From: Eledone cirrhosa
Taxonomy: Eukaryota
Direction: 5' to 3'
DNA length: 64,000 nucleotides
Assembly (NCBI GenBank): GCA_964016885.1
Contig: OZ024750.1
Span: forward strand, 868,001 to 932,000
A program made the position numbers and the translations under genes. Position 1 is the first letter of the stretch, and each line of letters starts with the position of its first letter. A model generated the notes under the pieces. That model saw only the letters and a list, made by a program, of their open reading frames with translations, did no database searches and was not told the origin of the DNA. This document shows positions 1,997 to 63,906 of this stretch, piece by piece.

Positions 1997-2039
<43 letters not shown>

Positions 2040-2469
2040 CGTCTCTTTCTCCCTCTTTTCATATATATGTATATATATGAAAAGAGGGAGAAAGAGACGA
2101 TTATGAGGAAGAAAAATATATTTTTTTCCTTATTATTGTGTCTCTCTCTCTTTTTTCTGGGTTAGAAAATGATTAAAACGAAATGTTTTACTTTGTGTGA
2201 AGTGTTAAGGTATTAGTTGATTTATTTATTATTTAACAATGGCATTTATTTATCTATTTATATATTTAATTTTTAAATAATAAATAAATCAACTAATACC
2301 TTAACACTTCACACAAAGTAAAACATTTCGTTTTAATCATTTTCTAACCCAGAAAAAAGAGAGAGAGACACAATAATAAGGAAAAAAATATATTTTTCTT
2401 CCTCATAATCGTCTCTTTCTCCCTCTTTTCATATATATATCCTAACTCGTGTGCCTCCTCTCCACATTT

Positions 2470-3796
<1,327 letters not shown>

Positions 3797-5047
3797 NNNN
3801 NNNNNNNNNNNNNNNNNNNNNNNNNNNNNNNNNNNNNNNNNNNNNNNNNNNNNNNNNNNNNNNNNNNNNNNNNNNNNNNNNNNNNNNNNNNNNNNNNNNN
3901 NNNNNNNNNNNNNNNNNNNNNNNNNNNNNNNNNNNNNNNNNNNNNNNNNNNNNNNNNNNNNNNNNNNNNNNNNNNNNNNNNNNNNNNNNNNNNNNNGTGT
4001 GCTTTCATTAGATATAATATAATATAGATCAGTTTTATAAGCAAATATTGACATACCCTTAAAAGAATGCGACCATGTCTGTTGGAAGCTATCCGGGAGT
4101 TTCCAACAGACATGGTCGCATTCTTTTAAGGGTATGTCAATATTTGCTTATAAAACTGATCTATATTATATTATATCTAATGAAAGCGCACCATAATTTG
4201 CTTTGGTGTCCTTGAAATATGTATAATGAAATAAATATTGTTTTATAAATATAGTTTCCATTTGTTAATATATTGTATATATATATATATGTATATATTA
4301 TATATATATGTATATATATTGTATGTGTATAGATAGGTGTATACAATATATATGTGTGTTTATATATATATATATCTGTATGCAAAATATTTATGTGTTT
4401 ATAAATGTATATGAGGTTGTGTATAAATATTTATATATATATAGAATTATTTATTTGTAGTGAATATACACATATACATACAAAAAAATAAATGTGCATG
4501 ATGTTTATTTTCCAAACCAACAGATGCACCACGCAAGCATACAACACTCATACAGATAGAATATTTTTGTCGGAATAATTTCCAGATTTCTTTGTGAGGA
4601 ATGGTTTTTTTTTTGTTTTTTTTATGCAATCTCAAATTTTCCAAAAACAACAGAGTGATTGTCTTTTCTGAGATCAGAGAAAAATAAAAACAAAAAACAA
4701 ACAAACAAGAAAACAAAAAACAAGAACAAATAAGTAACTGCTTGAGTCAATGGAATCTCTTCCATTACTCTTCAGCTTCATTTTTCAATATTGATTCTCT
4801 TGATTTTGTCTGTGTATAGGTATGAGGTCAAAATATTTTTGAAAAAAAAAAGAAATCCTTGGTCCAGCTATTGTGATACCATGACAGTGCTGGTATATTT
4901 TTGGAAGTGGAACATTGGAACAATTAAAAAAATAAAGGACCACTATGATTGTATTTTTTTTTCTTCTCTTCTCGAGTTGTTTTGTCTGACTTACAATAAA
5001 CTATCTTTGGTCAATTTAACATTGGCAGCCAGTCTTTTGATCCCCTA

Positions 5048-5170
5048 TCAAAGAACTTCATCAAATTCCATGGACCCTTTACTGAAAGGTGAGACTGGAG
5101 GGGTTTCTCCAAGTTTCATAATCATTATTCCAGAATCAGAACCAGAGGAGTCATGGCGGTCTTTATTATC
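5048..5170 (-). CDS. GARNL3: GARNL3 terminal coding exon: [40 protein letters not shown]
   Basis: Strong T-tract plus CCAG acceptor, phase 0, TGA-TAG stops; SPF/acidic tail resembles the recalled vertebrate C-terminus. Confidence 0.8.
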   Translation of the reverse strand, partial: DNKDRHDSSGSDSGIMIMKLGETPPVSPFSKGSMEFDEVL

Positions 5171-6065
5171 CTGGTAGAAAAAAAGAAAAAAGAAATTTCT
5201 ATAAAAATAGCAATTTAGAAACCAAATCAATATTTCGATTTTGTAGAAACTTTGATAGCGTTAATCCTTTAGCATTTACATTACTCAATATATAATATTG
5301 TATTTTTGTGGCAAAGGTTTTATCTTACATAATTATCTCACATAATATTGAATCTACAAGATTTTAATATTTATTTTGAGAACAAAACCTTAACGTGAGT
5401 ATGAGTGGCCAGTTATGGCCGATTTGAACAGAAAGAGGTGAGAGAGTTCTGGCTGGATATAGTTGGTTTAAATGCTAAAGGGTTAACAACACCATATTGC
5501 TTCATGACAGAATGTTGCAAGAACTAACAATATGGTAGAACAACAAATTTATTACATATATTATTCCGTAGAACAAGCCATACATATGAATTTATAATGT
5601 TACAACAACAATATTAAATTGCATGAGTAAATAAATAATTAGGTGATCAAATATAATTTTGTTCATATATAACTTATGGTGTGTGATATATTGTGTAATA
5701 GCATGCTATATATAGAGTATATCATATAATAGTATATAGCAGAGCACCATGATATACCACATAAACAATATTCCACAACATCATATCTACATGATACACC
5801 ACATCAACATATACTGAAGGTTGACCACATTATATCAGAAGAGGTAATAGCATCTGATATCCTTTACTGTGAAGAATAATGAAAAAAACTAATATAAAAT
5901 TTCCTTTGAGAAACTCTAATTATTGAGGAAGGTACACACCAGTTTGCCATGTATTTTACACAATATAGTAATATATATCATTGTCATTTTAATGTTTGCT
6001 TCCCCTGCTAGCAAACGTTATATATATATATATATATATATACTATATTATGTAATATGTGTGAG

Positions 6066-6101
<36 letters not shown>

Positions 6102-9100
6102 CGATATTAAATAAATGGAAACTATATTTATAAAACCATATTTATTTCATTATACATATTTCAGGGATACCAAATTAAAATATGGTGTGCCTTCATCAGA
6201 CAAAATACAATATATATATCCAGACAGCTTCCAAAAATAATGGTTGCATCTAATAGGGTACGTCAAAATTATTTATAAAACTGTTTATATATTGTATTTT
6301 GTCTGATGAAGGCATACCATATTTAAATTTGGTATCCCTGAAATATGTATAATGAAATAAATATGGTTTTATAAATATAGTTTCCATTTATTTAATATCG
6401 TATATCTACTCCAAAAACTTGTCGAGTGCTTTATATCAGTTATAAAATATTTACTTGTTGTATCCCAACAATTTTAAATAGAACTTTTGCATATATATAT
6501 ATATGAGTCTCGGGTTCAATCGGGAGTGACCTCAGGGCTTTTCTGATGATTTTGTTTGAATGAAATGGTTCTAGTCCTGTAGAAGCCATTTCTATATTAA
6601 ATATATATATATATATATATATAACTACACCTATGATTGTATGTCCATCTGATGAAGTAGCATGCATAATCATGTAACAGAAATATATAACTTATTGAGT
6701 ATTGACTCAGTCTGTTAAAACCCATCCAAGTTTTGTTCATCGGGAAGGCAGACGTTAAATAATGATGATGATGGAGGTGATGATAATGATGATGGTGATG
6801 ATGGTGATTACAGTTGGTGGTGGTGATGGTGGTGGTGGCAGTAACTATAAGATTATTTATAATTAGATTTGTTTCAGTCATGTTATTTAGACTGTTTACT
6901 CATCTGTGTTGAGAAAAATCAACCAGAATGTGATCACAAATCTTTGGATTATAGAGATTATGTTCGTTGCTATGTAATTAAGCATCTAATATAGAGATTA
7001 TGTTCGTTGCTATGTAATTAAGCATCTAATATAGAGATTATGTTCGTTGCTATGTAATTAAGCATCTAATATAGAGATTATGTTCGTTGCTATGTAATTA
7101 AGCATCTAATATAGAGATTATGTTCGTTGCTATGTAATTAAGCATCTAATATAGAGATTATGTTCGTTGCTATGTAATTAAGCATCTAATATAGAGATTA
7201 TGTTCGTTGCTATGTAATTAAGCATCTAATATAGAGATTATGTTCGTTGCTATGTAATTAAGCATCTAATATAGAGATTATGTTCGTTGCTATGTAATTA
7301 AGCATCTAATATAGAGATTATGTTTGTTGCTATGTAATTAAGCATCTAATATAGAGATTATGTTCGTTGCTATGTAATTAAGCATCTAATATAGAGATTA
7401 TGTTCGTTGCTATGTAATTAAGCATCTAATATAGAGATTATGTTCGTTGCTATGTAATTAAGCATCTAATATAGAGATTATGTTCGTTGCTATGTAATTA
7501 AGCATCTAATATAGAGATTATGTTCGTTGCTATGTAATTAAGCATCTAATATAGAGATTATGTTCGTTGCTACGTAATTAAGCATCTAATATAGAGGCTT
7601 CTTTACAGAATTCTGTTTGTTGTAGAAAATAATTGATCCAAACTATTCCGACAATGTATACAATATTCCCCATAGAGGAGTAATTAAGACTGAATAATTA
7701 CCAACACCACCAGGTATTAGATATATGAAGGATAAACCATCACCACCAGGTATTAGATATATGAAAGATAAACCATCACCACCAGGTATTAGATATATGA
7801 AGGATAAACCATCACCACCAGGTATTAGATATATGAAGGATAAACCATCACCACCAGGTATTAGATATATGAAGGATAAACCATCACCACCAGGTATTAG
7901 ATATATGAAGGATAAACCATCACCACCAGGTATTAGATATATGAAGGATAAACAAAGAACAAGAGATTTCTCTCGTTTGAGATGTTTTACTATAAGTAAT
8001 TTGTAAATATGAGAGTTAGTTGAAAAGTTCATAGGCTGACCAAGATACTCTCATGGAATGACCAAATCAGGTTTATTTTTCAACATAGTCCCAGGAAAGA
8101 AACAATGCAGTTATTAATAAGAAGAGTTGAAATTAATGCATGTAAAATTTCACAGCTCTAGCATCATTCCTTCTTAGTCAGCCTATGAACTTTTCAGCAC
8201 ACCCTCATAAAATTGGCTCTCTACTCTCTGAGTTCAAATCCCACTGAGGTCAACTTTGCCTTTCATCCTTTTGAGGTCCATAAAATAAGTACCAGTTCTG
8301 TACTGGGGTCAATTCTTCCTCTATATCTCTTCCTCTCTCATTGTATGTCATTTTAATACCCCTACAATTCCATCAATAGTTGTGGGACTATACATACATA
8401 TCAGCTATCAAAATATATGTAAGTATATACACAAACAATTTATATATTTTAACATATTTAATATGAAACCTCCTGAAACTGTCCCTGGTTCTACAATACA
8501 GAGCTGTTTATTTAAAAGTGTTTATATCTATTTCCAAGATTCTTCCTATTCAGCTGTTGTCATATGTCTATTGGTTGCTGCTTTAGATGTATGCACTCAA
8601 TAATAATTAACCCATTAGATACCAAATCAAGTTGGTCCCCACACTTAAGGGATCGCCACACTAGAGGAATATACTCTTGGCTTATCAACTACAACAACAC
8701 ATTGCAATGATACTAAACTGTTTATATTTATCTAAAAACCTTTCATAATAATATTATGTAAGAACCTTCTTTAAGTTATGTTCCAAATACCAAATTAATT
8801 ATGATAAAGCTTGTTATATGGCTAAATCCTTCCAAATTCTTGATTATTTTCAAAATGATTTTAAAATTATAGGCAGTGTCTTCCATTAGAAATATGATAA
8901 TGACTGGGTTATGTCGAGATGTTTCCTGATATCAGATGTTAAGATGTGAGGAATATATAAATATAAGAGAACATTAAAAGACAGTGAAATCTTAATTTCC
9001 CCCTCCCCCTCCTGGTATTATGCTAGTATATATATTTATATACTAACTTAATACTCGGCAAAATGATGGGGCATATAGCAAAAACATAATTTAATAATTC

Positions 9101-12100
9101 CTTGATTACAACATTCTATGTGAAGAAGCTTGAATCACTGACTTTTCTTTAACCTTAATTTCAACACATTTAAGGGTTTACTCAAAATATATTTAAGGGA
9201 TACAACTTAAATAGATTAAACAGGAGAGTTATGACCCCTTCTCATGCATTCTCATCGTTTCTTACGAGGAGCCATTTCGAAACTACCTGACAATTGTCAG
9301 TTGCCAGAGACGTTTTCTACTCTATCAGCATGCAGACTCACTGGGATTAGCATTGTATTGCCTATCCTTTCAATCTTCTAAATGTTTTTCTCACTGCTAT
9401 CCACCCCACCATATTTTAAGTCCCTAATCCTCATATAGTTGACCAATTAGAATTACCGGACCTTCAATTCCCTCTTCTCCACATCTGCTGGACAGAACTT
9501 GCAATAACACAGTCATCATCTGACAAGGAAAAGTTGAGCATTTAAACCCCAATCAACTAAAGTAATGCTATCAAGTATAAACAGGGATAACGAAGGAAAG
9601 ATGTTCTATTATTATCATTTATCTAACCTCAGAGCTAATGAAAGGTGGCTCATGACTAAGGTCTCCAGCTACCTCTGGCCTTTGAAAGGAATAGCCTGTG
9701 TAAAATGGAAAATAATGGGAAAAATACAGACCATACAGAAACAGGAGCAAAAACTAGTGAAAAGGTTACTAATGAAACAATAGAGAGAGTGAGATGTTCT
9801 TTGTAATTCAAATCTGAACAGAAATATATCCTGAGATTTTAGTCAGACTCACTCTGAAGTTACAACACACAATCCCATCTTAGTACCTACACAATGTCGA
9901 CTCTACATGTTAACTTCCAACCACTTTATACAGTGATGTTTCTATTTTACTTTCTACTCTTTGTTTCCCAGACCATACACAACTCACCCTCATCCTCTTA
10001 TATCTCTATTCACACATATATCTCCCATCTGTCTATCCACCTATCTGTCAGTCTATCTTCTATCTATCTGTTTGTCTGTATATCTATTATCTCTTCTCTG
10101 TCTGTTTATGAGGAGGAAACATTATTAATCTATGTCTCTCTCTCTCTATCTTTCCTTTTCTTCACCTTTCCTTCTCTATATTCCTAGATAGTCAGAACTT
10201 CTTAGATAAAAACCCTGGTTATTCACCCTTTTCCAGTTCACCGACGTACCTAAAAGGTTTTTTTAGTTACTTGTGTTTTCTTCAGCACTGGAAGAAGGTT
10301 ACTCCATAAAATCTCGGCTAGCCTAAAGAGTGTGTTATGTAAATATAAACTATTAGGAAACAATCTGTAGCCAGTCATATCTTAATATTTGATTGTATTA
10401 CACAGATACAAGCGTATGTGCACACACACACATACACATAAAATAGTAAATATATATAAGAAGCGACAGCAGAAATTGCTGTATTGCAGATTTAAATGCA
10501 TTTTGATGAGAAGCCCAACATATTCCATGATGTACAGGCATACACATGCCAGTTTGTAGCCCTGAAACCCTCATGCAACTGTCTCCAAAATAAACCGTTC
10601 CACATATGCACATGCCGAGGTATGTACATGCATGATGTGTGTAAATATATGTACATGCAAGTGAATGTGTGTATGTAGAAAAAATATATTTGTGTGCACA
10701 CATGGATGTGTGTATATGTATGTGTGTGTAGGTGAGTGTAGTTGTAAACACAGCGTGAAGAGGTATCTAACAGTTGTGACTGGCATTTTTGTGAGTTTTG
10801 TTAGATCATGAAACCATTGGTAGCTGATGTTATGATAACATGTGTACAGATTATAAATATATATATACATATATATATAAAGTTATGTGTGTGTAAATAT
10901 ATAGATTTGTATATAAGCCTGTGTGTAATGATTAAAAAGTCTGCATGCTTATTTATGTCCATATGTGTATGTCTAGTAAATCAAGGGAGGCTACTCTTCC
11001 ACAAGATTCAGTTTTGATTTGTTTTTTTTTTTCCTCTGCAACTATAAACATCCAATTTCTGTACACGTCTCTTTCTCTCTCTGTCTGTGTGTGTGTGTGT
11101 GTGGTCAAAGTTTTAATGTAATTTTCTCCATGTTGGCATGGACTGGATTGTGTATCCGATACAATATAGTATCCCATATTTTGGTGTTTTGTCACCTCAT
11201 ATGGTCTTACCACTTTTATTACTTGTATTATTTTCTTCCTTGGTATTCTAATACCAGTTCCCTCTACTTGCAACAAGACAACTCTTTTTCATGCACTACA
11301 TATCATTAACCCTTTACCATTTACATTACTCTATATATACTAGGCTTTACCTCATATAATTATCTCACATAATATCGAATCTAAGATTTTGATATTATTT
11401 ATTTTGAGAACAATACCTTAACATCAGTATAAGAGGCCAGGTACAGTTGGTTTAAATGCTAAAGGGTTAATGGAAAGAAGTGACAGGATTCCCCTGGGGT
11501 TGTGGTAGAATGGCCTGGCATATAGTAGCGGTGTGTTGTAAGAAGCAAAACATATTCAATCTTTTGTTTTCTGAAATAAATCAATCTTTTAAAACTATTC
11601 CTAGTTATTTGATTTGACTTCTGTTACACAATTAGGATCAGGAAAATATTTGAAATAATATTAAAGTTGTATATCATCATCATCGTTCATGTTAGCATGG
11701 GTTAGATGGGTTCTCCCATTTGAGGCAAGTTGGGTCAGGTGACCGTGACTTGCTCATATAGAACTGTTTCTGTAGTGTACATGTAGAGTACATGTAGTAG
11801 TGTACATGTAGCATACATATAGTGTACATGTAGTGTACAAAAGGTTTAGGTCCATGCCAACTGGCTCACCTACCACCCATCCTGGTTGGTTTGCTCGGTC
11901 TACACCCACACACAAACACGCGCGCGCGAGCAGAAACACAACTACGATGAAAGTAAAAAAAAATTAAAACGACAATGAAGAGGGGAGATAACTCCGTAAA
12001 AATAATGTTTGCTCATCGCTAACTTAGCAATTTCAATGGCAGTTTAGATATTGTTAAATCTACAGTTAAACTATTGAAAAAATAAGGAAAATGGCAGAAA

Positions 12101-44770: not shown

Positions 44771-45961
44771 TTATTTATTTACATATATGTATATATATAT
44801 ACAGGTGAGGGGATACAAATGACAGAATACAGCAATCAACATTTAATGTGGAATATAAGAAATTGGAAATGTAATTGGAATTGTTGAGAAGATTTATTAA
44901 TAATAACTATACTGGTTTTACGTTTGGATGATTTTCAAAAGTTAAGTGAGGAGCAGAGATGTGTGGCTATGTGGTGATGTGTCTCACATCACTTTTCCCA
45001 TATATATATATTCAATTTAGAATAGGCATACCCTATCCATGAGAGAGAAAGTGAGAAAGAAATAGTGAGGAAGAATCAACCCCAGTACTTGACTGGTACT
45101 TTTTTTTATCAACTTCAAATGGATGAAAGAACTCAGAGAGCAGAGACAGAAAGAATACTGCAAAGCATTCTATCCGATGTTCTAACAACTCTACATGTAT
45201 AAACTGCACACATGTATATATATATATATATATGTATATATATAATTTTAATTGATTAGTCTGGAAGAAGAGACTGTGCCGATGTCTTTCAGAGATATTC
45301 TATACAATATAGATTAGAGAGGAAAACAAGGTCTGACTGCCACAATACATGTCAAATAATTAAACCCTGCATTTATCATTACCACCACCAACAACAGTAA
45401 AGAGTTCACACAACTTACCATTACAGTACATATCATCATCTGATGTTTGCCCATCTTTTGCAAAAAGTACACCAAATTTGAAATTGACAGAACCCTGAAG
45501 AAATAAATGAAACATTGAAAGTTTTATATTGGGAAAGATTTATTTATATCTATTAACAAATTTAATATCTACCAGAAACTACCCAGGGTTCTATGAGATA
45601 AAACTGCTTATTTTAACCGGGTAGAAAAGTACATAGGCTGACTAGGAAGGAGTGATGCTAGAGCTGTGAATTCTTGTATGCATTAATTTCATCTCTTCTT
45701 ATTAATAACTACATTTCTAGGGACTCTGTTGAAAAATAAACCTCATTTGGTCATTCCATGAGAATATCTCAGTCCACCTGTGAACTTTTCAGCCTATGAA
45801 CTTGTAGTGTTAATAGTATTGAAGATTGTGGTGACAATGATGATGATATAGAATATACAGCACACATCTATTTAATATATTTAAAAGATAGATAGATTGA
45901 TAGATAGATATAGAAAATGTTTGCTTCACATAGATAAACAGAGAACAGATAATTCATATAT

Positions 45962-45992
<31 letters not shown>

Positions 45993-48900
45993 ATCATATA
46001 ATATATATATATAGGAGTAGTCAACACATACACACACATAAGTTCAAGCTTTAAATTAAGTGTTATCTTTTCGATTTATTAATATTTCTGAAAGTTTGTA
46101 AATTCAGTTGCCAATGATACATTTGTAGGTGATGAAGTTCCTGTCACGTGTGTATAGACTTAGTTGATATTTTTTTAAGATCACAAAATATGGCATATTT
46201 AGTGACTATATCATCTTTTCATATTGTTACTTTGGCATATTATTGGTTTTCAGTATGTTTTAGAAGTCTATGTTTTATATGTGCACAAAACCAATTTATT
46301 ATTTTTTTTATAAATTTGTTTCTTATATTACGAGCTGCAAGAAAAGTTAGTCACTGAGGATCTATTTGATTCTATAAGATTCTATTTGATTCTATAAGAT
46401 TCTATTTGATTCTATAAGATTCTATTTGATTCTATTTGATTCTATTTGATTCTATAAGATTCTATTTGATTCTATAAGATTCTATTTGATTCTATTTGAT
46501 TCTATTTGATTCTATAAGATTCTATTTGATTCTATTTGATTCTATTTGATTCTATTTGATTCTATTTGATTCTACTTGATTCTATTTGATTCTATTTGAT
46601 TCTATAAGATTCTATAAGATTCTATTTGATTCTATTTGATTCTACTTGATTCTATTTGATTCTATTTGATTCTATTTGATTCTATTTGATTCTACTTGAT
46701 TCTATTTGATTCTATTTGATTCTATAAGATTCTATAAGATTCTATTTGATTCTATTTGATTCTACTTGAGTCTATTTGATTCTATTTGATTCTATTTGAT
46801 TCTATAAGATTCTACTTGATTCTATTTGATTCTACATCTTAGCGTCTTCTATTATAGTCTTGTCTTTAATAGAAGATATATATATATCTTGATATATATA
46901 TAATGATGATGATGATGATGATGATCTTCTATTATAATAGTAATACAATATGTATATCTTCTATTATAATAGTAATACAATATGTATATCTTCTATTATA
47001 ATAGTAATACAATATATATATATATATCATCATCATCATCATCTTCGTTTAACGTCCATTTTCCATGCTAGCATGGGTTAGACGGGAGTTGTCCCGCTTG
47101 AGGCAAGGCTGGTCGGGTGACCGTGTCTCGCTCATATAGGACTATCTGGCAGGTTTTCTACGGCTGGATGCCCTTCCTAACACCAACCACTTTTACAGTG
47201 TGGAACTGGGAGGTTTTTACCGTGTTACCTACACGGCCACATTACAGCGTGGACTGTGTTTTTTGTTGTGACACCTACACGATCTTGATCTCATTTTCTC
47301 GTGCTGTTGGTGGGAGTGGGAGGATAGGGTAGGGGTAGTGGATTGGGGTGTATATTTGATTAAGAGGTGCCTACTGACTGTAGGTTTCGCTTTGTACATA
47401 GGCAAGGCGGGTCTTCTGTATTACTGCGTAGCGCCAAAGATCTCGGTCCAGAGACATTGTCTTAGAGAGATGTAAGTGTGTGAAGTCGGAATTTATCAGA
47501 TCATCCCAGGTTTTTCTGGGTCTACCTATTCTGAAACTACCATCTATTTTGATCGCCCTGCACTTTTTTATGCAGCTGTCGTCTTTCATGCGCATCACGT
47601 GACCATACCAACGTAGTCTTCTCTCAAGTAAACAGCATCTGATCCCTCTTATTCCTAATTTCTCACTTAGTTCATTTATGCTTTGCCATTCACATATATT
47701 ACTATTACACATCCAACGGAGCATGCATGCTTCGTTCCTTTCCAGTCTACGCAGGTCCTCTGCACGTAATGCCCATGACTCACTGCCATGTAGCATTGCT
47801 ATTCGTATACAGGCATCATACAATCTGCCTTTCATTTTTAGAGAGAAACCTTTTGTGGCCAACAGCGGTATAAGCTCTCTGAACTTTTTCCATCCCGTGC
47901 TGACTCTGGCTACTGTACTTTCAGAAGACCCTCCACCACTGCTGATTTCGTCACCCAGGTAACGGAAAGTGTCTACTATTTCTATAGAACCATCTGGGCA
48001 ATAGAAGGAGCTAGTATCCTTTGGACACTTGCTACTTATTGCACCTGAGCATCGGCCACATATAAAGTCTACGTTCTTAGATAGTTTACCTGTGATCCCA
48101 CTACATCTTTTATGTACCCATACTTTGCATTTGGGACATAAAATGGAATTTTTGCCTACTCCTTTCCTTCACACTGAGCATGGCCATTTCCCTGAGGGCA
48201 CCTGTGCCCTATTTTCCTTTCTACAAACTAGAACTTTAGTCTTAGACAAGTTAACTTTAAGGCCTTTTGATTCTAGGCCATGCTTCCATGTTTGGAATTT
48301 CTTCTCTAGTTCAGCCATTGATTCAGCTATGAGCGTTAGATCATCTGTGTATAGGAGTTCCCATGGGCAGCCGGTCTTGAACTGCTCTGTTATAGCCTGA
48401 AGGGCAATAATAAATAAGAGGGGGCTAAGGACAGAGCCTTGATGAACGCCAACTTTTACACTAAATTCTTCACAATATTCATTGTTAATTCTAACCTTAC
48501 TGACTGTTTCATTATACATAGCTTGTATAGCTCTCACAAGCCATTCATCTACACCTAGTTTTCTGAGAGCCCACCAGATAATGGAGCGGGGGACTCTGTC
48601 AAAAGCTTTCTCCAGGTCTACAAAAGCTAAGTAGCAGGGTTTACTTTTAGCTAGGTACTTCTCTTGTAGTTGTTGTACAAGGAAAAGAGCGTCTGTGGTA
48701 CTTTTACCTGACACAAACCCAAACTGCATTTCATCTAGATCAATTCGCTCTCTGATTAGTTGTGCTATAACTCTTTCTGTGACCTTCATGACCTGGTCAA
48801 CTAACTTAATGCTTCTATAGTTTCCCTTATCTAGAGCATCCCCTTTACCCTTGTAGCAGTTAATGATGATGCTGCTACGCCAGTCTTTCGGTATGACCCC

Positions 48901-51900
48901 ATTCTGTATTACTTGGTTAACTATACGGGTGACTATAGTGTGTCCCACCATACCAGATGCCTTCAACATCTCAGCAACTATCTCTGAAGGCCCAGCTGCC
49001 TTGCCTGTCTTCATATCTTTGATTGCCTTACTTATTATACTACCTTCAACTTGCATCGCTGGTCCTTCTATTGGATCGATTTGGGGCAGACTATCTTTTT
49101 CCCATTTATTCTCTTCATTTAATAGTCTCTCGTAGTGACACTTCCAGGCTATCTTCTCATCAGTATCAGTGAGCGCAAGTACACCATTATCATTACGGAC
49201 ACACTTCTCCCCGATAATATCCCGGTTTTCCTTGACACATTGTCTAGCAATCCTGAACACCTCACGTTTTTGGTCCTCACGTTGTAGAACATGCTTGAAT
49301 TTTCTATCCTCTGCTACCCTTTTTGCAAGGTACACTTGTCTCCTCGCTTCTCTCCTGGCCACTTGATAGTGCTCTCTACTTCCCCCATCCTGCCATACTT
49401 TCCAAGCCTACTTTTTGGCCTTGATTGTCTCTTCCACTTACTGTTCCACCACCAAGTTACTCTCCTCCAGCCACAGATTTCATCCGTTGCTTTCAACAGG
49501 TTCACTTTCAAGAATTGCCACTGTTCCTCTATATCGCACGTCTCTAATTGCTCTTCCTTATTGTCAAAGGCATCAAGTAATATGCTTTTAAATTTGTCAC
49601 TGGCTATGGGGTCCTTCAACTTCCATATTCTTCTCCTCAAGGTAGGCCTCTTCTGTCATCGAATACGTCTATTCCTGACTATGAGGTCACTAACTACTAG
49701 GCTATGTTGGGAGGTGCATTCTTCACGGGGGAGGGATTTAGTGTTTACAACAGACATTTTGTCCCGTCTTCTAGTAAGGATATAATCTATCTGGCTGGCG
49801 TGTTCCCCTGATCTATATGGTGATCAAGTGGTTTTCATGTTTTTTGAAGTTTGTGTTACAGATAGTGAGGCTATTTGCGTCACAGATGCATATCTTCTAT
49901 CATAATAGTAATAGAATATATATATATATATATGAGTCCAGGATTCAATCGGGGTAACCACAGTAAGTAACGTACTCAATACATTAGTAGAGTATATACT
50001 AACATTTAATATAGAAATGGGCTCTACAGGATTAGAACTGTTTCATTCAAAGGAAATCATCAGGGAAGCTTTACTGATGATTTCCTTTGATTGAAATGTA
50101 GAAGCCATTTCTATATTAAATAAATAAATATATATTTATTTATTTATGGATCTACACCATGGGTAAACCAGCAAGTTCTACACAATTGCTTGGCCTGCTA
50201 GAAACAGCCATCAAATCTTTTTCAACTTTTACTCAAGCCATGCACAGTTCTTTGGTTGACTAGCAGTATACCACGAGAGTGTTTTATTTATCCATTAAAT
50301 TGTCATAAATACCAACTGTAAAAGAAAATATTTATTATTTAGCTTGATTTGATTTATAAACTTACTTCTTGCTCCTCAAGGACGAGTAATTCTTTCTGTA
50401 TCTCTGTATCAAACACTTCTTTTGGACCTCTTTCGATCTTTTCCATTCCATAGTAGCTGGAAAAAACAAACAATAACAAAAACAAATATTTAACAATTAA
50501 GAATTTGTAAATATTTGAATGATTTATAACTGTTTTAATGCATGTCATTAATTCTTTTGTTGCCATATTTCTAATGAAAGTCACTTCCTATTATTTTTAA
50601 ATCATTTTGGAAATACTCAAAAATTTAGTAATATAACAAACTTTTTCATTATTTATCTGGTGTTTGGAACATAACTTCAAAAAGGTTCTTACATAAAATC
50701 CCTTCGTAAAGTGGTCGTGTTGGTGGCATAACAAAAAGCACCCAATTCACCCTGTAACAAGGTTTGTGTTAGGAAGGACACAACGATGATGATGATAAAC
50801 ATTTTAAAACAAACAATTTTGTATGATAGAACGAGGGGCAGGTGACAGTTTGATAACAAAAGGTTTAAAAGAGACGTCAGAGGAATGAGACTAATGGAGG
50901 GATGATGTGATGGAAAAGACTCATATAACCTATGCAAGCATGGAAAAATGGATGATGATGATGATGACAACGATTATATCTGATGATGATGATGATGATG
51001 TAATTACTTGCTCAACCAAGTCAGTAAATAGCACATTCAAACACAAACTGTAAATTGCAAAAATTGCAGTTGACAGAGTTGTTTCAGAGTTGAACTGCTG
51101 CAGTTTGAAGAGTTGACAGTCTGCAGCTGTCACCGTAGCATTGTTCTCTGGCATTGCTTTAAAAGATAAATAATTAAAAAAAAAAAAAATAACTGTCTCA
51201 GTTCCTGAAATATAAATAAGTACTACTCTACATAATTCAGGCACGCTATAATCCACCATCATCATCATCATTATCATCATCATCGCTTAATGTCCATTTT
51301 CACACTATAATAGGTTAGACAGGTTGTCCCATTAGAAGCAAGTTGGGTCAGGTGTCTCTGTCTTGCTCATATAGAACTGTTTCTGGCTTGGTTTCTACAG
51401 CTGGATGTCCTTCCTAACACCAACCACATTTACAGTGAGAACTGGGAGCCTTTTTTCTCATCAAGAGCAGAAAATTGCAGCTGACAGGGCATGTCCTATG
51501 AATGGGGGATAATATACCAGCAAGAACTGGAATGTCATGGTTACCAGGTATTGGGAAAAGACCAAAAGGTAAGCAAAAGAACACCTGGAGATCAACCATA
51601 AAGGATGACTAGCACAGGGGTGACACAAATTGGTTTTAAGCACCAACCCTTGCCAGAAACAGAGAAAGATGGAAGAGCACAGTGGCCCATTGCTGTGAGG
51701 AGGAACCAGATGATCAGTTTACTTTGGATGGTTTAAACACTAATTAATATAGAGTTAGTTGTAGTAGAAATAGTACCATAAATTAGTGGTTAATCCTGAT
51801 GGATTAAAATTAACTTTAATACATTCTTGAAATCCTGTATATTGCACAGCATTTTCATCACCAAAGCAACCATGGATGGAAAGATTATACCTAACTGAGT

Positions 51901-54900: not shown

Positions 54901-57849
54901 AAGGATAGATAGATAGACAAATAGATGTAAGGATAGATAGATAGATAGCTATAGAGTTTTAAGGAAGCCATTGAAAGACATTTATTAAAGGTTTCCATTA
55001 AATTATTCAGTGTTAATTCATAAAATAATTCTTGTTTGCTATGATGTTTCTCTGTTCTACATTTCAGATGTCATAAAATTATCACATTTCTTTTCACACT
55101 TATTTCTCTGTGTTGGCATGGAAGGATAACTTTGAAAACTGTCACCCTCCCTTTCATGTCTTTCATATAAGATATGGATATATTTCTTTCGAGATTCAAC
55201 TTCTTTCATCTAACTACTGAAGCAAACAAAATAAGGATTTCTTTCTTGAAAATAAAAGTGAGTTAATTTGGAAAAGTTGGTGGTAGTATATTGCAAGTTG
55301 ACTGGGTACCATTGTAATTAACTGGTTGTAAGTTGAAGTCCTTGTGAAGGCACGTGGCCTAGTGGTAAAGGTGTTGGACTTATGATCGTAATGTTGTGGG
55401 TTCGATTCCTGGGCTGGGTTGTGTTGAATTCTTGAGCAAATCACTTCATTTCATGTTGTTCCAGTATAGTTAGCTGAAAAGAGTACCAGTAATAGCTGGA
55501 AGTTTAACCCTGCGATGGACTGGTGTCCTGTCCAGGGGGAAATCTTGTACTCTCAGTTGCTTCATGCCATGAAACCGGGATAAGCACCGGCTCAACGTAT
55601 TGCTTGCACCGCACAAGGGCATGCATGCATGCATCTTGAAGTCCAATATGTAAGATCTGGTTATGTGTGTATTTTATATGTATTACAGATATTTGTGAAG
55701 GTGAATGGTTTCGTGGTTAGAGCATAGGGCTTGCAATCATTAGGTGGTGAGTTCGATTCTCGGACCGGGTGATGTGTTGTGTCATTGAGTAAGACACTTT
55801 ATTTCACATTACTCCAGTTCACTCAGCTGTAGAAATGAGTTGCGACATCACTGGTACCAAGCTGTATTGGCTGTTGTCTTTCCCTTGGACAACATCAGTG
55901 GTGTGGAGAGGGGAGACTGTTATACATGGGTGACTGCTGGTCTTCCACAAACAACCTTGCCGGGATTGGCACTTAGATCACAAAAACTGGAATAAATACC
56001 TGCAAAGCATTTAATTTGATGTGTTAATGCTTTTACCAATTCCCTCCCAATTCATATGTTGGGTTTAATTCCATGGTATGTAGATTGAGTCTGGTAATCA
56101 GGATTTCAGGATTTGTTTTATATCTTTAGTGTGTGTTCAATAAATAAACTACTACTTTGGTGATGTCAAATTAATATACATGTTAGAACTTTAATTTTAA
56201 AGAGCTTTGTTATTATTATTGATGTTTATGTTTAGCCTCAGATCAGACACGATCAAACATACCTATGATAAAAAGCCTTCCTGAAATGACTATTCTGCCT
56301 GTTTCTGTTTCGAAATTGTAGGGTGTGAGTTGAGAGAGATATTTAACTGCTCTTTCTAGCAGATTTACCAATCATGTAGTGGCTCCCCTCATGAATTTTA
56401 CAAGTATTTGGCAACAAATAAGAAAGTTATGTCAGCTGAGGTAATTACAGTTGCAACTATTTTCTAAATAGTTAATAGACCAGACTGGTTTGCTGTTCTT
56501 TTTCTACTGATCTAACAAAAATCAATATTTACATAACTGCAGTGGCAGAAACAGCAGAATCACCATCATCATCATCACCAACTCAATTTAATGTCCATTT
56601 TTTTTCTATGCTATCATGAGTTAGATGAGTTGTCCCATTGTGAGATAAGTCAGATCAGATGACCATGTCTTACTCATACAGAACTGATTCTGGCTTGGTT
56701 TCTACGACTGGATGGATGCCCTTCCTAATGCCAACCACATTTACAGTGTGGACTGGGGGCTTTTTAACGTGGCACCAAAATGATAAACTGATAGGTTGGA
56801 CTGAATGCTTTTTGTTGTGTCACCAACATGACCACTTTACAGGGTGGACTGGGTGCTTTTTGTCATGTCAAATCAAAATGATTTATAGCATTGGAACAAT
56901 TTATAGTATTTAGTCTTATCTTTCAGAGCTATGAGTTCAAATCCTGCATTGGTTAACCTTGATTTTATCTCAGTTATAGCCACTCTCAAGACGAGAGGCT
57001 TGTCAAGCTGGAGCTTAACCCGGCTTCAGTAGTGTTAAGCAGCTGAAAGTACACATACCTCTCATTCGAGACTTGATAAAATAAATGCTAGGCATGTACT
57101 AGGGCCAACCATACAAGGGTCAGCTGAAAAGATACTCTCATGGAATGACCAAATGAGGTTTATTTTTCAACATAGTCCCTGCAAAGAGTTGAAATTAATG
57201 CATGCCAGATTTCAAAGTTATAGCATCACTCCTTCATAGTCAGTCTATGAACTTTTCAGCCGACCCTTGTAGTTCCCTTCTACAAATTTGAGATTTTGTT
57301 GTGATGTGAAAATTGATATTGTTATTAAACTGTTATCAGAAACAAAAAGCATGGCTATTAAGCCTGACAGAAATATCTGAGTACTAACAACTGAATTGAT
57401 TAAATACTAATTAGATGTTTTGTAGAAAAGGAAATTAAAATTAATCCTGTTGATTAGATATTTGGAGACATGTAAGGCTGGGTGGTTAGGGAGTTAGTTT
57501 TGTAATCCCGTTGTTTTAGGTTTGGTTCCATCTTGTGGCACTTTAAACAAGTCTCAAGTGCTATAATCTTCAGTTTATATATTGGGAGGAAAATTTGGTA
57601 GAAGGAAACTGAAGAGAATATATATATATAGAAGTAGTAACAACAGTTAGTTGACCATACCGAGAACAATTGTTTCACCTTATGTGAATCTTCAACTCGG
57701 ACTGGTAATCCAGTCCGAGTTGAAGATTCACATAAGGTGAAACAATTGTTCTCGGTATGGTCAACTAACTGTTGTGTTACTACTTCTACCAAACTCGTCC
57801 CATGGACTGAGTCCTCTACCACTACGGATATTACTTTCCAGTGTTCTAC

Positions 57850-57907
<58 letters not shown>

Positions 57908-60316
57908 TACAACAAAATGAGGTTTCACATTAAGGTTTTTATTGATTAGGCTCAGTTACACACACACACACACACACACATATAAATTTAAAGGTATAGA
58001 AAAAACAAACAACTAGACATGAAGTAGAAGTTAGATGAAAAACATTTTAATTAAAGTCCGTTCTTTAACACATGTTTCAGTACAACATCAGTCTACGAGC
58101 GCTGATTGCATATTATTATTATACTCAATTGCTAGCATTATGTAAAACACTGCGCTTCTTCAGAAAGAGTTCATAGTTCAAGGTGAGGTCCTGCATCTTG
58201 CAGAAGGAATTTTCTTACCGCTATCTACTCAGACCTAAAGGCAACTCTTTAGGTCTGAGTGATTGTGATGATTGGCTGTCATTAAATAATCAAACAATTA
58301 TCCAGCCCTTATTAGATAACACTCAATACGAGTTCAATACATGACAAAAAAAAAAAAAACTTGCACAAAATGCCATGAGGTAAGATTGAACTAGGGACTC
58401 CAATATTGCAAAGCCAAGGTTTTAACCACTTGACTATGCTTGTGTCATATAATTACTTCATCTTCTCAGATGACAGATCATCCTTATGTAATATTCAGTC
58501 AAGTTCTGTTCAGTATTATGTGTTGATGTGTTCCGAGAAGACTTTTAAGATCGGCAGATAATTATTTATATGGAATAGAAAAATAACTTAGAATTTCTAC
58601 AACTTTGATTAGATGTATCTGTGGCATGACATTGTAGTGCATATGTCTTTGCAGTTTAGGTTTCAGTTAATGCACTCTGATGCACAAAATCCCGACTGCG
58701 GCGCAAGCGGTTTCAGCTTGTGTGCCATACACACATATATGCAAAAAGTAAACGGAAACAATAAAGCAAACAACACAGTATAATGAAGAAATATATTTGT
58801 TTCATGCTTGATATAGTAGGAAAAGAGTCTTTACGTTTCAGACACTAGTCCTTCATCAGAAGATAGAATGAAAAGTAAAAGATGAAATAGAAAGATTGAG
58901 AGGGAAAACAGGAGGGAACGGAAAAAATATAAGGTGTCCTTATGTATACACACTTCAACAGCAAAAAACAAACAAACAATGCATTCAAATAAATTCTGTT
59001 TTATATGCATTATTTAAATTATGTAAACATTTTTGGGTGTTTACTTACAATTGAATTAAGTCTGGAGATCATTTTATTTTTGGAAAAGGTTGAACATTCT
59101 AATAAATATTGCCTGTACAGGTAATCAAAGTATGTATACATTTTTTTGGGACACCCTGTGTATATGAGATGCTACTAATTAAGACCAGTGAGGCCGTTAT
59201 TCACCTCAGTAGTGTATACTTAAAGAAAGTAGAGTGTAGATATTATTATAGGGATTCTTTGTCTTATGGTTGAGCTTATAACATTTCGATAGCAAATGAG
59301 AAATAAACCTGATTAAATCCTCCATTTCTTCTCGAAACAGGCTTAACCAGAAGGAACAGAACCCCTATAATAACAATTTCTGATTTAGGCATAAGAAGGC
59401 CAGCAATTTTGCGAGAAGGGAAAGTCGATCCCAGTACATTACTGGTACTTTATTTCATCGAACCCGAAAGGATGAAAGGCAAGTTAACCTCACCGGGATT
59501 TGAACTCGGAATGTAAAGGGACAACAACAGTAATAATAATTTCTCATTTAGGCACAAGACCAACAATTTCTGGGGGGAGGGGAAAGTTGATTAAATCGAC
59601 CCCAGTGTATTACTAGTACTTTATTTTACCAACCCCGTGTGTGTAGCAGTATAAATCTGCATGAATACCTTGAAGGTAACCACTTTACTAAAAGGTGTCT
59701 AAAAATAGGTTAACTCAATCATTTGATGACTACATATCGATAAAACATGTATTAGGGACTGATATTATATAACTGATTAAATCCCGCCCAGGTCAACTTT
59801 GCCTTTCATCCTTACGGGGTCGATAAAATAAAGTACCAGTAATGCACTGGGTAATTGCTGGCCTTGTGCCTAAAGTAGAAACAATTATATAACTGATTAA
59901 AACTCAAGGCACTGTCCCAGCATGGCCAGAGTCGAATGACTGAAACCGACAAAAGAATAAATACTTACTGTTTTTCTCCACAAAATTGTTCTGTACTGGG
60001 GTACATTGAGGTTGTTGGCATCTGTGACAACCACAGATAAAACGAATGGTTCTTTTTCCCCATCAGCTCCAACATAATTCTGATGTACTACATAAGAGAA
60101 GTCAGAAGTTTGATAATATTCTCAGTCCACACTCGCTATTTATATTCTTGTATTTCTTAGCTAACTCTCTTTCTCTCTCTCAAACACACAGCGTGTGTGC
60201 GCATGTGCACACACACACTCTCTCTCTCTCACACACACACATATATACACTCAATGTATATATATATATACATACACTTACACCTATATGAGAGAGAGAG
60301 ATAGATAGATAGATAA

Positions 60317-60357
<41 letters not shown>

Positions 60358-61940
60358 TAGATAGATAGAGAGAGAGAGATTCCACACAGTGACCAAAGAA
60401 ACCTATTACAGAAAGATTAGAGAGTGGGATTAGATATCCATTCCATTCTCCAATCTTTCACATTTCGCCTCCTTCACCAATGGACATTTCACTCGAAATG
60501 TTAGTAATTATCTATTTCCAAGCTAGTATTTTGATTTCCTTGTTTGTTTTTGGTTCTTTTTTCTTTCTTTCTGATATTGAGATCTTGACATATATATAAC
60601 CCCAGTTGTATTGTAGCTCCTTAAAGCTCATTTTACCGTATTTTACAATACTGTAAACAAACTATAACAAACAAACTATAACTCTCTTCTTGTATCTATA
60701 GCTGTATCAGATAAAAATATTACTTTCATATCTTCTTTTTCTCCTGCTTAGTTTCATAAACAAATGTTTTTAGACTTTTCTTTATATAAAGACAACGAAA
60801 ATAAAAACGACTCCTCCCCATCCCCCAAACAAACCCTAGGGAAAAACAGACAGAAATAATCTACTTACGTTTTCCCAAAAAGTAACGAAAATACCAACGA
60901 GTCTGGGATTCTGGATTCTCAAGATGGATAGGACTATTCAAGGGGCTGGGAATTTGAAGATGGTTCTAAAAACAACAAAAAACATCAATTTCAGTTAGTT
61001 TAAATAATAAAATTCTTGGTGTTTATTACTAAATACAAACAGCTACGAGGGTGGGCTGAAAAGTTCTTAGGCTGACTATCAAGGAAGGATGATAAAGCTG
61101 TGAAATCTTGCATGTATTAATTTCAACTCTTATTATTAATAACTGCATTAGGGTGGTGGATTGGCAGTATCGGTAGAGTCAGACACGTTCTGAGTTCAAA
61201 TCCCGCCGAGGTTAGCTTTGCCTTTCAACCTTAAGGATCGATAAATAAAGTACCAGTAATACACTGGGGTTGATTTAATCGATTTTCCCTTCACCCAAAA
61301 TTGCTGGCCTTGTGCCTATAGTAGAAACAATTATTAATAATTGCATTGTTTCTTTCCAGGGACTATATTAAAAAATAAACCCCATTTGGTTATTCCATGA
61401 GAGTATCTTGGTCAGCCTATCAACTTTTCATAGGCTGACTATGAAGAAATGATGATATAACTGTGAAATCTTGCAGGCATTAATTTCAACTCTTCTTATT
61501 AATAACTGCATTGTTTCTTTCCAGAGACTGTCGAAAAATAAACCCCATTTGCTGATTCCATGAGAGTATCTTGGTCAAACTATGAACTTTCCAGCCGACC
61601 CTCGTATATTGAGAGGGTTGTTATTGTAGAACAATGAATAAATTGGATTATTTAAACATAAAGCAGATGGGTTATGACTTCATCATTCAGCGTTAAATTG
61701 TAAATAATGTTTATATTTTTTCTTTCAGTTTTGTTCAACAAACACGTAGACTCTATCAAGCATAGCACAGCATGTATAAATGAGAGTGGATATTAAGTGA
61801 AGCAGTGAAACTATATAATTCTCCAGGCAGTATATGTCTAGTTTTATGATTATATGCTTTTGTTAACTTTAAAACCTAAACATTCTCCACAGAAACATTC
61901 TCATTATTATCATCATCTGCATCATCATCATCATCATCTG

Positions 61941-61973
<33 letters not shown>

Positions 61974-63053
61974 AACCATTGTTTTAACATTTGTTTTTCT
62001 ATGCTAGCATGGGTTGGATGAGACTTCCAGAGGCAGCATTTGACGGTTAATCTCCTTGACTATGGTACTTATTCTAATGATATCATCTATCGAACTGCTA
62101 AGATTTAAAAAAAAGTAGTGTCCCCAACCCACTGCAGCCTTTGGCCCACAGATGCACTTTTGTTTTCCTGTCATTTCTACCACTACTACAACGACCTCTG
62201 CTCCTCCAAGTTGTCTGGTTTTGTATCACTTCCATACAACCACTCATGACTCATTCATTTCTCCTCATCTCATCACCCGTCTTATGTCCAATTCCTTTCC
62301 ACCTCAAACTCTGCACTAATCATTACAATCAGTCCTTCATTTCAAGAAGTTGACTCTCTGGAATCTCCTCACTACCCATGTTTTTGTTTTTCCGTAGCTA
62401 TCGATCTTCAAAAGAAACATCAACTGGATCAATATCACCAGCCACAGAAAACCTACAACTAGTCCCTGCCCCGATATCACAAATATTACCTACCCCAAGG
62501 TCAATCCAATGAAATAAATATATAAAAAGACAATGTCTCTCCACCAAATCAGCCCTCATCTACACATGTTCAAATCGAAGATAATAATGGGGCACAATTG
62601 AGAAGAGTTAGGATTAATTGGATAATTAATTCATATTCAAAGTTATTAAATTAATTAATTCATAAAAAAAATCTGATACATTTATATCGATCTTTCAATT
62701 AGTCTAATGGGAATATAAAAACCAATTCTCAAACATGTCCACTGGCAGGAGTGAGCCCCATGGAATGGGTATTTTAATACGTCTCCCTCGCCATTCTCCA
62801 CTCTGTCCTCTGGACCTACAGGTTGACTTGCATCTAACTTCTTCATTTCTAATATGATCATGGTACAAAATTCTCAGGATTTTGAATTTTTCAAATATCT
62901 TCAGGGAAAGACATCCGCCTTTTTTGATGATCTTTAGTTTTCTTCCACATAATATTTACCTAGAAAAATATGTCGTTTACTCTTACAGTTTTTACCTGGT
63001 TTCAGGTACGAGACTAAGGCCAAGCGGACGTTAAAACGACGATGATCTATATA

Positions 63054-63124
<71 letters not shown>

Positions 63125-63240
63125 GTAGAACACTGGAAGGTAATATCCGTAGTGGTAGAGCACTCAGTCCATGGGACGAGTTAGGTAGAAGTGGTAACAC
63201 AACAGTTAGTTCACCATGGTGAACTAACTGTTGCGTTACC

Positions 63241-63307
<67 letters not shown>

Positions 63308-63865
63308 TAATGAAATAACAGGAGGCTGGATTTGTGTAAATCCTTGAAAGGTTTATTACACTATGATCATTTCAATGACCGGGTTCCGTATGAATCCGGT
63401 GATATCATCAGGTATTCGAAATATAATACGTGAATGTAATAGATAAAATCCATGGGGCTGAAAATCGAGGACCCGAGGGCAACCTCTATCTTGCACCCTC
63501 TATCTTAGCCGGTCGCCCTCGAGCTAAGATAGAGGGTGCAAGATAGCGGCCGCCCTCGGGTCCTCGATTTTCAGCCCCATGGATTTTATCTATTACTTTC
63601 ACGTATTATATTTCGAATACCTGATGATATCATCGGATTCATACGGAACCCGGTCATTGAAATGATCATAGTATAATAAACCTTTCAAGGATTTACACAA
63701 ATCCAGCCTCCTGTCATTTCATTATAATATTTAACTCTGTAATAGCACCACCAACTACAAAAACAAAGACGGTTGAACTGCCTTACATTGAGTACTCTCT
63801 ATATTATTACATTACGATTGACCATACGGAATAGACCAGCTCTATACAGTGGTGAACCTCAAACC

Positions 63866-63906
<41 letters not shown>

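What the first reader, a model, noticed from the sequence alone, without database searches (positions are those of the whole stretch)
3997..63728. Dispersed hammerhead-ribozyme fold-back elements next to (TA)n tracts: about ten motifs from six or more families in one gene
Seen: at least five 160-430 bp palindromes (~4000-4270, 6097-6405, 38595-38900, 57629-57788, 63304-63728) and three solitary motifs (37123, 58062, 58828). All show type I hammerhead topology: stem I - CUGANGA - stem II - GAAA - 2-bp stem III, often with a palindromic tetraloop - UH - stem I'. Stem sequences differ between families yet still pair, AATAAA often follows the cleavage site, and most copies abut (TA)n. Established: minimal type I hammerheads mark Penelope-like element pseudo-LTRs and non-autonomous retrozymes, and PLEs can produce inverted termini. 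Inference: these are non-coding, ribozyme-bearing, microsatellite-targeting retroelement families, abundant in this genome and possibly uncatalogued, with one ribozyme per strand.
Basis: partly seen in the sequence, partly recalled or inferred. Interest (0 to 1): 0.9.

Follow-up and report, generated by a model that had tools for sequence, protein, structure and literature searches.

The report
Hydra-type Penelope stubs, paired start hairpins
These palindromes are cut-down ends of a known kind of ribozyme-carrying jumping gene (Hydra-type Penelope-like elements) sitting head-to-head in TA repeats, and their two ends stop just before two copies of a small conserved RNA hairpin that likely tells the copying enzyme where to start.

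Summary
The palindromes, hammerhead motifs and (TA)n neighbours are real (8 intact-core motifs against 0.18 in shuffles), but not all palindromes hold two intact ribozymes. They are not a new class. Families A, B and E are the pseudo-LTR ends of coding Hydra-clade Penelope-like elements; E shows pLTR-ORF-pLTR with the clade's diagnostic motifs. D (2.26 kb) and F (1.3 kb) are non-coding tandem derivatives. Inverted truncated arm, one-sided tail, hammerhead on both strands and (TA)n targeting are all in print. Beyond what I found in print: each family has two fixed insertion ends; 99 of 103 classifiable head-to-head pairs join one near and one far end; both ends lie a few bases before an RCTC..GAGY-RC hairpin (6 of 6 and 3 of 3 families), also visible in 4 of 6 published Hydra consensus sequences; family C copies stop at a fixed 5' point behind a TATA box. 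Likely mechanism: two cDNAs primed from the two ends of a cut in (TA)n. This scan has already reported these stubs and hairpins on other DNA of the same genome. No cleavage, expression or priming was tested.

The parts
3997..4283 (.). Family A stub 1: forward arm 4089-4283 ends at the near site in (TA)n; inverted arm cut by the N gap; core CUAAUGA (G5A) in both arms
6094..6491 (.). Family A stub 2: inverted near-end arm 6094-6216 (core 6199-), forward far-end arm 6217-6491 (core 6303+), tail with hairpin starting 6408
   Evidence: family linked to a Hydra-type endonuclease 1.3 kb upstream in L009 and L145
6505..6613 (.). Family C stub 1: inverted fragment of the tail only (from 6505) joined to a near-end arm 6537-6613 with core 6543+, stem III decayed
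37063..37247 (-). Family F solo near-end arm, intact core at 37191, predicted cleavage after 37128; family is a 1299-nt non-coding tandem unit in L156
38595..38981 (.). Family E stub: inverted near-end arm 38595-38728 (no complete core), forward far-end arm from 38729 with core CUGAAAGA at 38764+, tail hairpin from 38905
42876..43097 (-). Open frame holding an exon of a Rap GTPase-activating protein gene (host gene)
   Evidence: PF02145, 35.8 bits above cut-off 27; Rap1GAP chain E 0.003
49934..50121 (.). Family C stub 2: far-end arm 49934-50072 on minus (core 50063-, hairpin from 49993), near-end arm 50066-50121 with stem III deleted
57629..57852 (.). Family B stub 1: inverted near-end arm 57629-57709, forward far-end arm 57710-57852; core UUGAAGA (C3U) in both; tail hairpin from 57793
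   Evidence: endonuclease ends about 185 nt upstream of the core in L111, L123
58005..58215 (-). Family H solo arm: core CUGAAGA at 58163, 78-nt stem II region, predicted cleavage after 58067; no RCTC..GAGY hairpin
58740..58928 (-). Family G solo arm: classical minimal hammerhead (extra A, G10.1-C11.1, GAAACGUH), core 58859; clade not determined; no RCTC..GAGY hairpin
63123..63243 (.). Family B stub 2: far-end arm on minus 63123-63217 plus a short inverted arm; too short to include the hammerhead
63304..63870 (.). Family D stub: inverted near-end arm 63304-63523 (core 63411-), forward far-end arm 63523-63870 (core 63621+), tail hairpin from 63734; family is a 2.26-kb non-coding tandem unit

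Best explanation
The motifs are hammerhead-bearing pseudo-LTR ends of Hydra-clade Penelope-like retroelements and their non-coding derivatives, left as short head-to-head stubs in (TA)n, likely because the element's enzyme primes two cDNAs, one from each end of a cut in (TA)n, at two hairpin-marked sites on an uncut transcript. Shown: linkage to RT-endonuclease frames (A, B, E), non-coding tandem units (D, F), two fixed ends per family, near-plus-far pairing, a conserved hairpin just behind each end, microsatellite junctions. From the literature: a Penelope-like enzyme cuts and extends both strands and starts at two internal RNA sites, with or without ribozyme cleavage (PMC11167929). Inferred: the hairpins set the start sites; the two cDNAs stop early, in family C at the RNA's 5' end behind a TATA box, and are joined at short complementary stretches; the hammerhead rides along and in a read-through intron transcript is buried by arm-arm pairing. 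Odds: identity about 0.9; two-cDNA priming about 0.6; hairpins as start signals about 0.6.
For: E: pLTR on both sides of an RT-EN frame plus an inverted arm in L146, upstream pLTR in L140, EN 2.3-2.5 kb before the E end in L097, L148, L153; motifs RWR, DKT, YRDD, CxCx5C, CxxC..E..N..CxH. B: EN directly upstream in L111, L112, L123, L126. A: EN 1288 and 1355 nt upstream in L009 and L145, four collinear matches between them. D: 2261-nt period in L091, no Hydra-protein match; 20 of 20 fetched body loci follow the unit, none matches the PLE proteins tried. F: 1299-nt period in L156. Two end peaks in A-G. 99 near+far, 3 near+near, 1 far+far, 30 more with one unclassified end, of 133 pairs. 274 of 319 arm ends run into microsatellite against 17-20% of random places. 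First hairpin intact in 152 of 175 copies spanning it, all six families; chance per tail about 1% or less. Second hairpin behind the far end in 11 of 14 non-microsatellite D continuations, in L140 for E and by eye in L156 for F. Stem changes A-U to G-C in two other families and, by eye, the motif in 4 of 6 published Hydra consensus sequences, one with a further U-A to C-G change. In 24 of 99 pairs the near arm holds sequence the far arm lacks. C: 78 of 104 arms stop in one 15-nt bin, 4 go further; long copies have TATAAATA about 30 nt before it.
Against: H and G lack the hairpin although G has two end peaks; H's link to an endonuclease rests on one locus; no frame was linked to C or G. The single D and F reference copies used, and the second hairpin in L146, L034 and L256, carry substitutions that break the motif. 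The hairpins are weak folds on their own (z -0.6 to -2.1). The two arms mostly share alleles (307 of 351 polymorphic sites, 191 expected at random), which fits self-copying as well as two cDNAs from one source. Lopsided arms can also come from later deletions in palindromes. Samples were the best hits to the window's copies, so lengths and 5'-end peaks in B, D, E are biased; pairs were not purged of segmental duplicates (L022/L023). In vitro, PMC11167929 saw no strand difference in start site. No tree with reference Hydra proteins was built.
Confidence: 0.75

Rival explanations
1. Same elements, but the inverted arm is made by self-priming: one cDNA folds back and is copied, and the tail hairpin acts as a stop for that second strand rather than as a start signal.
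For: 45 of 99 pairs turn within 15 nt of the same point; arms share alleles; palindromes at inverted junctions were read as self-priming in PMC3846280 (passages).
Against: 24 of 99 pairs are not nested, 7 with a tail-only far arm; 41 of 153 near-end arms had no partner found, some over 800 nt long (part of these reflect reference mismatch); an identical hairpin also lies behind the far end, where no stop is needed.
Confidence: 0.3
2. One reading: the palindromes are self-contained non-coding families that move as fold-back units with a working ribozyme on each strand.
For: D and F are non-coding; C is almost always about 135 nt long with a repeated junction.
Against: Arm lengths and junctions differ from copy to copy; stubs lack the second hairpin; only 2 of 5 palindromes hold two intact cores; arm-arm pairing dominates the fold (-396 kcal/mol); A, B, E continue into coding frames.
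Confidence: 0.07
3. Miniature inverted-repeat DNA transposons that target TA and resemble hammerheads by chance.
For: Inverted ends in TA-rich sites.
Against: One-sided tails, variable arms, RT-endonuclease frames upstream, conserved cores with changing stems across 29 clusters from 282 motif positions in 1.0 Mb of fetched, overlapping loci.
Confidence: 0.02

Closest known systems
Hydra clade of C-terminal-endonuclease Penelope-like elements (Craig et al. 2021, PMC8557442; includes Hydra-1_Obim from Octopus bimaculoides)
   Same: Protein motifs, (TA)n targeting, hammerhead in the pLTR often with U.U at the base of stem II, 5'-truncated inverted copy with a hammerhead on each strand (Penelope-13_HM), one-sided tail.
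   Different: The window's hammerheads differ from that of Hydra-1_Obim; tails are 60-140 nt, not 30-40; 3' untranslated parts reach 1.3-2.3 kb (E about 5.2 kb per unit against 'generally <3 kb'); the paired hairpins are not mentioned in the main text.
Poseidon element PAc of Anolis carolinensis (Frangieh et al. 2024, PMC11167929)
   Same: Two internal RT start sites that bound the tail; AT-rich target; both strands cut and extended; uncut RNA as template.
   Different: Different clade; start sites lie inside an AC-rich stem-loop within the ORF, here before two copies of one hairpin upstream of the ORF; the genome shows near+far pairing, not seen in vitro.
Minimal hammerheads of metazoan PLEs (Cervera and De la Pena 2014, PMC4209133)
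   Same: Type I, short palindromic stem III, pairs on opposite strands 100-700 bp apart, mostly from truncated elements; family G fits the consensus.
   Different: A-F and H lack G10.1-C11.1; A, D, E, F have a C.C mismatch at the fourth position of stem II; E has an 8-letter core; H a 78-nt stem II region.
Animal non-LTR retrozymes (PMC7229834; bioRxiv 10.64898/2026.07.22.740005)
   Same: D and F are non-coding tandem units with one type I hammerhead each, tied to PLEs.
   Different: Units of 1.3 and 2.26 kb against about 300 bp (at most 972 bp in a search limited to 1000-bp periods); mostly dispersed stubs; no RNA or circle evidence.

Membership tests
Hydra-clade PLE | One frame with RT and C-terminal GIY-YIG-type endonuclease between pLTRs | tested here: met
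   E in L146, L140, L152 (frames broken in these copies); only the endonuclease end seen for A, B, H
Hydra-clade PLE | RWK motif near the N-terminus | tested here: met
   RWR in L140; Hydra-1_Crog also has RWR
Hydra-clade PLE | DKG changed to DKT | tested here: met
   SDKT in L097, L140; DK[TS] in 35 of 40 long relatives, ADKG in 0
Hydra-clade PLE | CxCx5C linker | tested here: met
   E, B and A frames; not readable for H
Hydra-clade PLE | CCHH motif absent; CxxC and CxH beside the conserved E and N | tested here: met
   Read by eye in E, B, A endonuclease ends; one cysteine only before YIG
Hydra-clade PLE | Hammerhead in the pLTR and insertion into (TA)n | tested here: met
Hydra-clade PLE | Generally shorter than 3 kb (a tendency, not a diagnostic) | tested here: not met
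   E unit about 5.2 kb between pLTRs in L146
Hydra-clade PLE | Placement in the clade on an RT tree | not tested
   No reference Hydra proteins were available to the tools; resemblance to the printed Hydra proteins is by eye
Non-LTR retrozyme (families D, F) | Non-coding tandem units, each with a type I hammerhead | tested here: met
   partial tandems of two units, no long arrays seen
Non-LTR retrozyme (families D, F) | Small unit (about 300 bp, under 1 kb) | tested here: not met
   2261 and 1299 nt
Non-LTR retrozyme (families D, F) | Self-cleaved linear and circular RNA accumulates | not testable with these tools
   needs RNA data or bench work
Active hammerhead ribozyme | Intact CUGANGA, GAAA and UH with three stems in the family majority | tested here: inconclusive
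   Met for A, B, C, D, F, G, H majorities; E has CUGAAAGA. Stem I of C changes in step between subfamilies. Cleavage not tested.

The most novel reading that the evidence does not exclude
Hydra-clade Penelope elements across at least four phyla use a duplicated RCTC..GAGY-RC hairpin as a two-site start signal: an enzyme pair primes one cDNA before each hairpin from opposite ends of a cut in (TA)n, close to the RNA's 5' end, so most events give tiny palindromic stubs; kilobase non-coding units that keep hammerhead and both hairpins hijack the same machinery. This would explain the tail and the head-to-head ends of these elements in one rule.
Probability: 0.5. Interest if true: 0.65.

Novelty: new member of a known kind. 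Interest (0 to 1): 0.42.

Why it matters
The finding as written is known biology. What it offers is a testable handle on an open question named in PMC8557442: how Penelope-like elements make tails and inverted ends. A 10-letter paired motif, fixed offsets and a near+far rule give direct mutational tests, and the motif is a way to recognise non-coding passengers. One endonuclease query drew 57,081 first-look candidates (150 scored), so a clade described from about 27 families seems to be a large part of this 3.0-Gb genome. If transcribed in introns, the stubs would supply long double-stranded RNA, a possible editing substrate (speculation).

Tried and rejected
Rfam scan: no hammerhead family in the listed matches, only microRNA-like hairpin matches below gathering scores. 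Pfam did not recognise the Hydra frames (RVT_1 only at E 0.013), so assignment rests on motifs. Sequencing runs for the D unit: no RNA holder listed; no reads were laid, so expression and cleavage sites are open. A homologue search with one presumed host exon found nothing; the name GARNL3 is recalled, not shown. AATAAA as a poly(A) signal: rejected as a general feature (3 of 7 families). A degenerate hammerhead in the loop of the E palindrome, and the second CUGAUGA at 38913 in the E tail: the first vanished in the family majority, the second has no GAAA partner there. Reading family C as a SINE with no upstream part: rejected once L148, L157 and L161 showed upstream sequence. Test for two different templates per insertion: not decisive. 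Folding single motifs did not recover full hammerhead folds reliably (z +1.0 to -3.0). Look-ups by sequence in the scan's notes gave nothing.
Full report
Setting. The window lies at G000:C10:868001-932000 in a 3.0-Gb, TA-rich animal genome. That it is an octopus is my inference from size, composition and protein likeness to Hydra-1_Obim; it was not established. One Rap_GAP exon lies on the minus strand at 42.9-43.1 kb.

Observation. The five palindromes are there. A strict type I hammerhead descriptor found 3 motifs against at most 0.145 per shuffle; a relaxed one, tuned on these motifs, found 8 with intact cores against 0.18, 0 of 200 shuffles reaching 8. Of the five palindromes, two hold two intact cores (6094-6491, 63304-63870), one holds one unusual core (38595-38981), two have a core change in both arms. 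Rfam listed no hammerhead among 150 shown of 206 matches.

Families. Searches of the own genome with each motif gave 22 to 4409 first-look candidates, of which at most 40 were scored and 15-30 loci fetched per search. Family majorities keep CUGANGA and GAAA while stems differ; E has CUGAAAGA. A relaxed scan of 1.0 Mb of fetched, partly overlapping loci gave 282 motif positions in 29 clusters.

What lies upstream. E continues through about 2.3 kb of untranslated sequence into an RT-endonuclease frame; L146 has pLTR-frame-pLTR plus an inverted arm, L140 the upstream pLTR and start codon. B has the endonuclease end about 185 nt before the core. A has it 1288 and 1355 nt upstream in two loci that match each other. 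H has it in one locus. The frames carry RWR, DKT, YRDD, CxCx5C and CxxC..E..N..CxH and lack the CCHH cysteine pair, the Hydra diagnostics in section 11 of PMC8557442. The E endonuclease drew 57,081 candidates; its RT has 5187 relatives at E<=0.001, and 35 of the 40 longest among the top 150 carry DK[TS]. D is a 2261-nt and F a 1299-nt unit in partial tandems, with no match to the PLE proteins tried; 20 of 20 further D body loci follow the unit. No frame was tied to C or G.

Anatomy of insertions. Arm ends fall in two peaks per family, a near and a far site 40-140 nt apart. Of 133 head-to-head pairs, 103 had both ends classified: 99 near+far, 3 near+near, 1 far+far (duplicates not purged). 274 of 319 ends run into microsatellite against 17-20% background. 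In 45 pairs both arms turn at about the same point, in 30 the far arm is longer, in 24 the near arm. Arms share alleles at 307 of 351 polymorphic sites.

The hairpins. I noted the first hairpin, RCTC-loop-GAGY-RC at the start of the tail: intact in 152 of 175 copies of A-F that span it, present in 5 of 15 further clusters tested (two with G-C for A-U), absent in G and H, chance about 1% or less per tail. The idea of a second hairpin came from the scan's earlier notes; I confirmed it behind the far end in D (11 of 14 continuations), E (L140; decayed in L146) and F (L156, by eye). Ends lie mostly 2-11 nt before the hairpins; larger values reflect subfamily differences and the 16-nt limit of the test. 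By eye the motif stands in 4 of the 6 new Hydra consensus sequences of PMC8557442's supplement (coral, two sea cucumber families, copepod), twice in a row in Hydra-1_Ajap; it was not seen in the parts shown for Hydra-1_Amil and Hydra-1_Obim.

Family C. 78 of 104 arms stop within one 15-nt bin at the start of stem I; 4 go further. Of 82 cores, 58 have a fold-back partner upstream; among the other 24 only the long copies share upstream sequence, with TATAAATA about 30 nt before the stop. I read this as cDNA running off the RNA's 5' end; it is inferred.

Mechanism. Best reading: two cDNAs from the two ends of a cut in (TA)n, one started before each hairpin on uncut RNA, stopped early and joined head to head. 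It builds on PMC11167929 (parts 1-2 of 4 read). The rival is self-priming with the hairpin as a stop (PMC3846280, passages). Non-nested pairs, partnerless near arms and the second hairpin favour the first; shared alleles and later deletions keep the second alive. In a read-through transcript the D arms pair with each other (-396 kcal/mol), so the stubs are unlikely to cut.

Literature. PMC8557442: passages, section 11, supplement rows and passages describe the clade, its (TA)n targets, hammerheads, inverted copies and tails, and list one octopus family. PMC4209133 (parts 1-2 of 4) reports hammerhead pairs on opposite strands. PMC7229834 (passages) and bioRxiv 10.64898/2026.07.22.740005 (parts 1-2 of 5; supplements not seen) cover retrozymes. 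PMC13282606 (passages, section 6) lists active Penelope families in Octopus vulgaris and does not use the words Hydra or ribozyme. Searches, and a term look-up in PMC8557442, found no description of the paired hairpins; the library lacks most subscription papers, and Arkhipova 2006 and Lunse et al. 2017 (recalled) were not seen. Supplementary figures of PMC11167929 were not read and could bear on novelty.

Verdict. The paired hairpins and the near+far rule are the part worth keeping, and the scan has met them before in this genome.

Noticed in passing
window 2034-2470: A further fold-back with a one-sided tail and no hammerhead core seen; 984 first-look candidates, copies 92-99% alike, same near and far ends in other loci, no RCTC..GAGY hairpin; family not identified.
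   Followed up: partly
window 6303, 37191, 38764, 63411; cluster 10: A C.C mismatch at the fourth position of stem II recurs in families A, D, E, F and one more, while the pairs around it change; may be a tertiary contact.
   Followed up: partly
window 6649 (+), 19719 (+), 39484-39527 (-): Decayed hammerhead-family remnants: two resemble other clusters by eye, the third is a family C fragment.
   Followed up: no
window 47371-49655 (-): Broken non-LTR reverse transcriptase frames (RVT_1, 112 bits), unrelated to the hammerhead stubs.
   Followed up: no
window 22809-24572, 33706-34833, 6790-7729, 46231 onward: Near-perfect tandem arrays with periods of 61, 36, 40 and 10 nt.
   Followed up: no
window 50354-50587, 59897-60121, 5048-5260 (-): Frames that look like further exons of the Rap GAP gene (likeness to GARNL3 recalled, not shown).
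   Followed up: partly
L025:227-535 and L027 minus strand: Other Penelope-like clades are present: a GIY-YIG frame with the cysteine pair (PF01541) and a Neptune- or Naiad-like frame.
   Followed up: no
L022/L023, L033, L046, L071, L161, L171: Stubs of different families often sit side by side in one (TA)n tract, which suggests repeated use of the same targets.
   Followed up: no
window 49934-49960: The far end of family C reads like a tRNA T-loop (B-box-like) on the opposite strand; may be chance.
   Followed up: no
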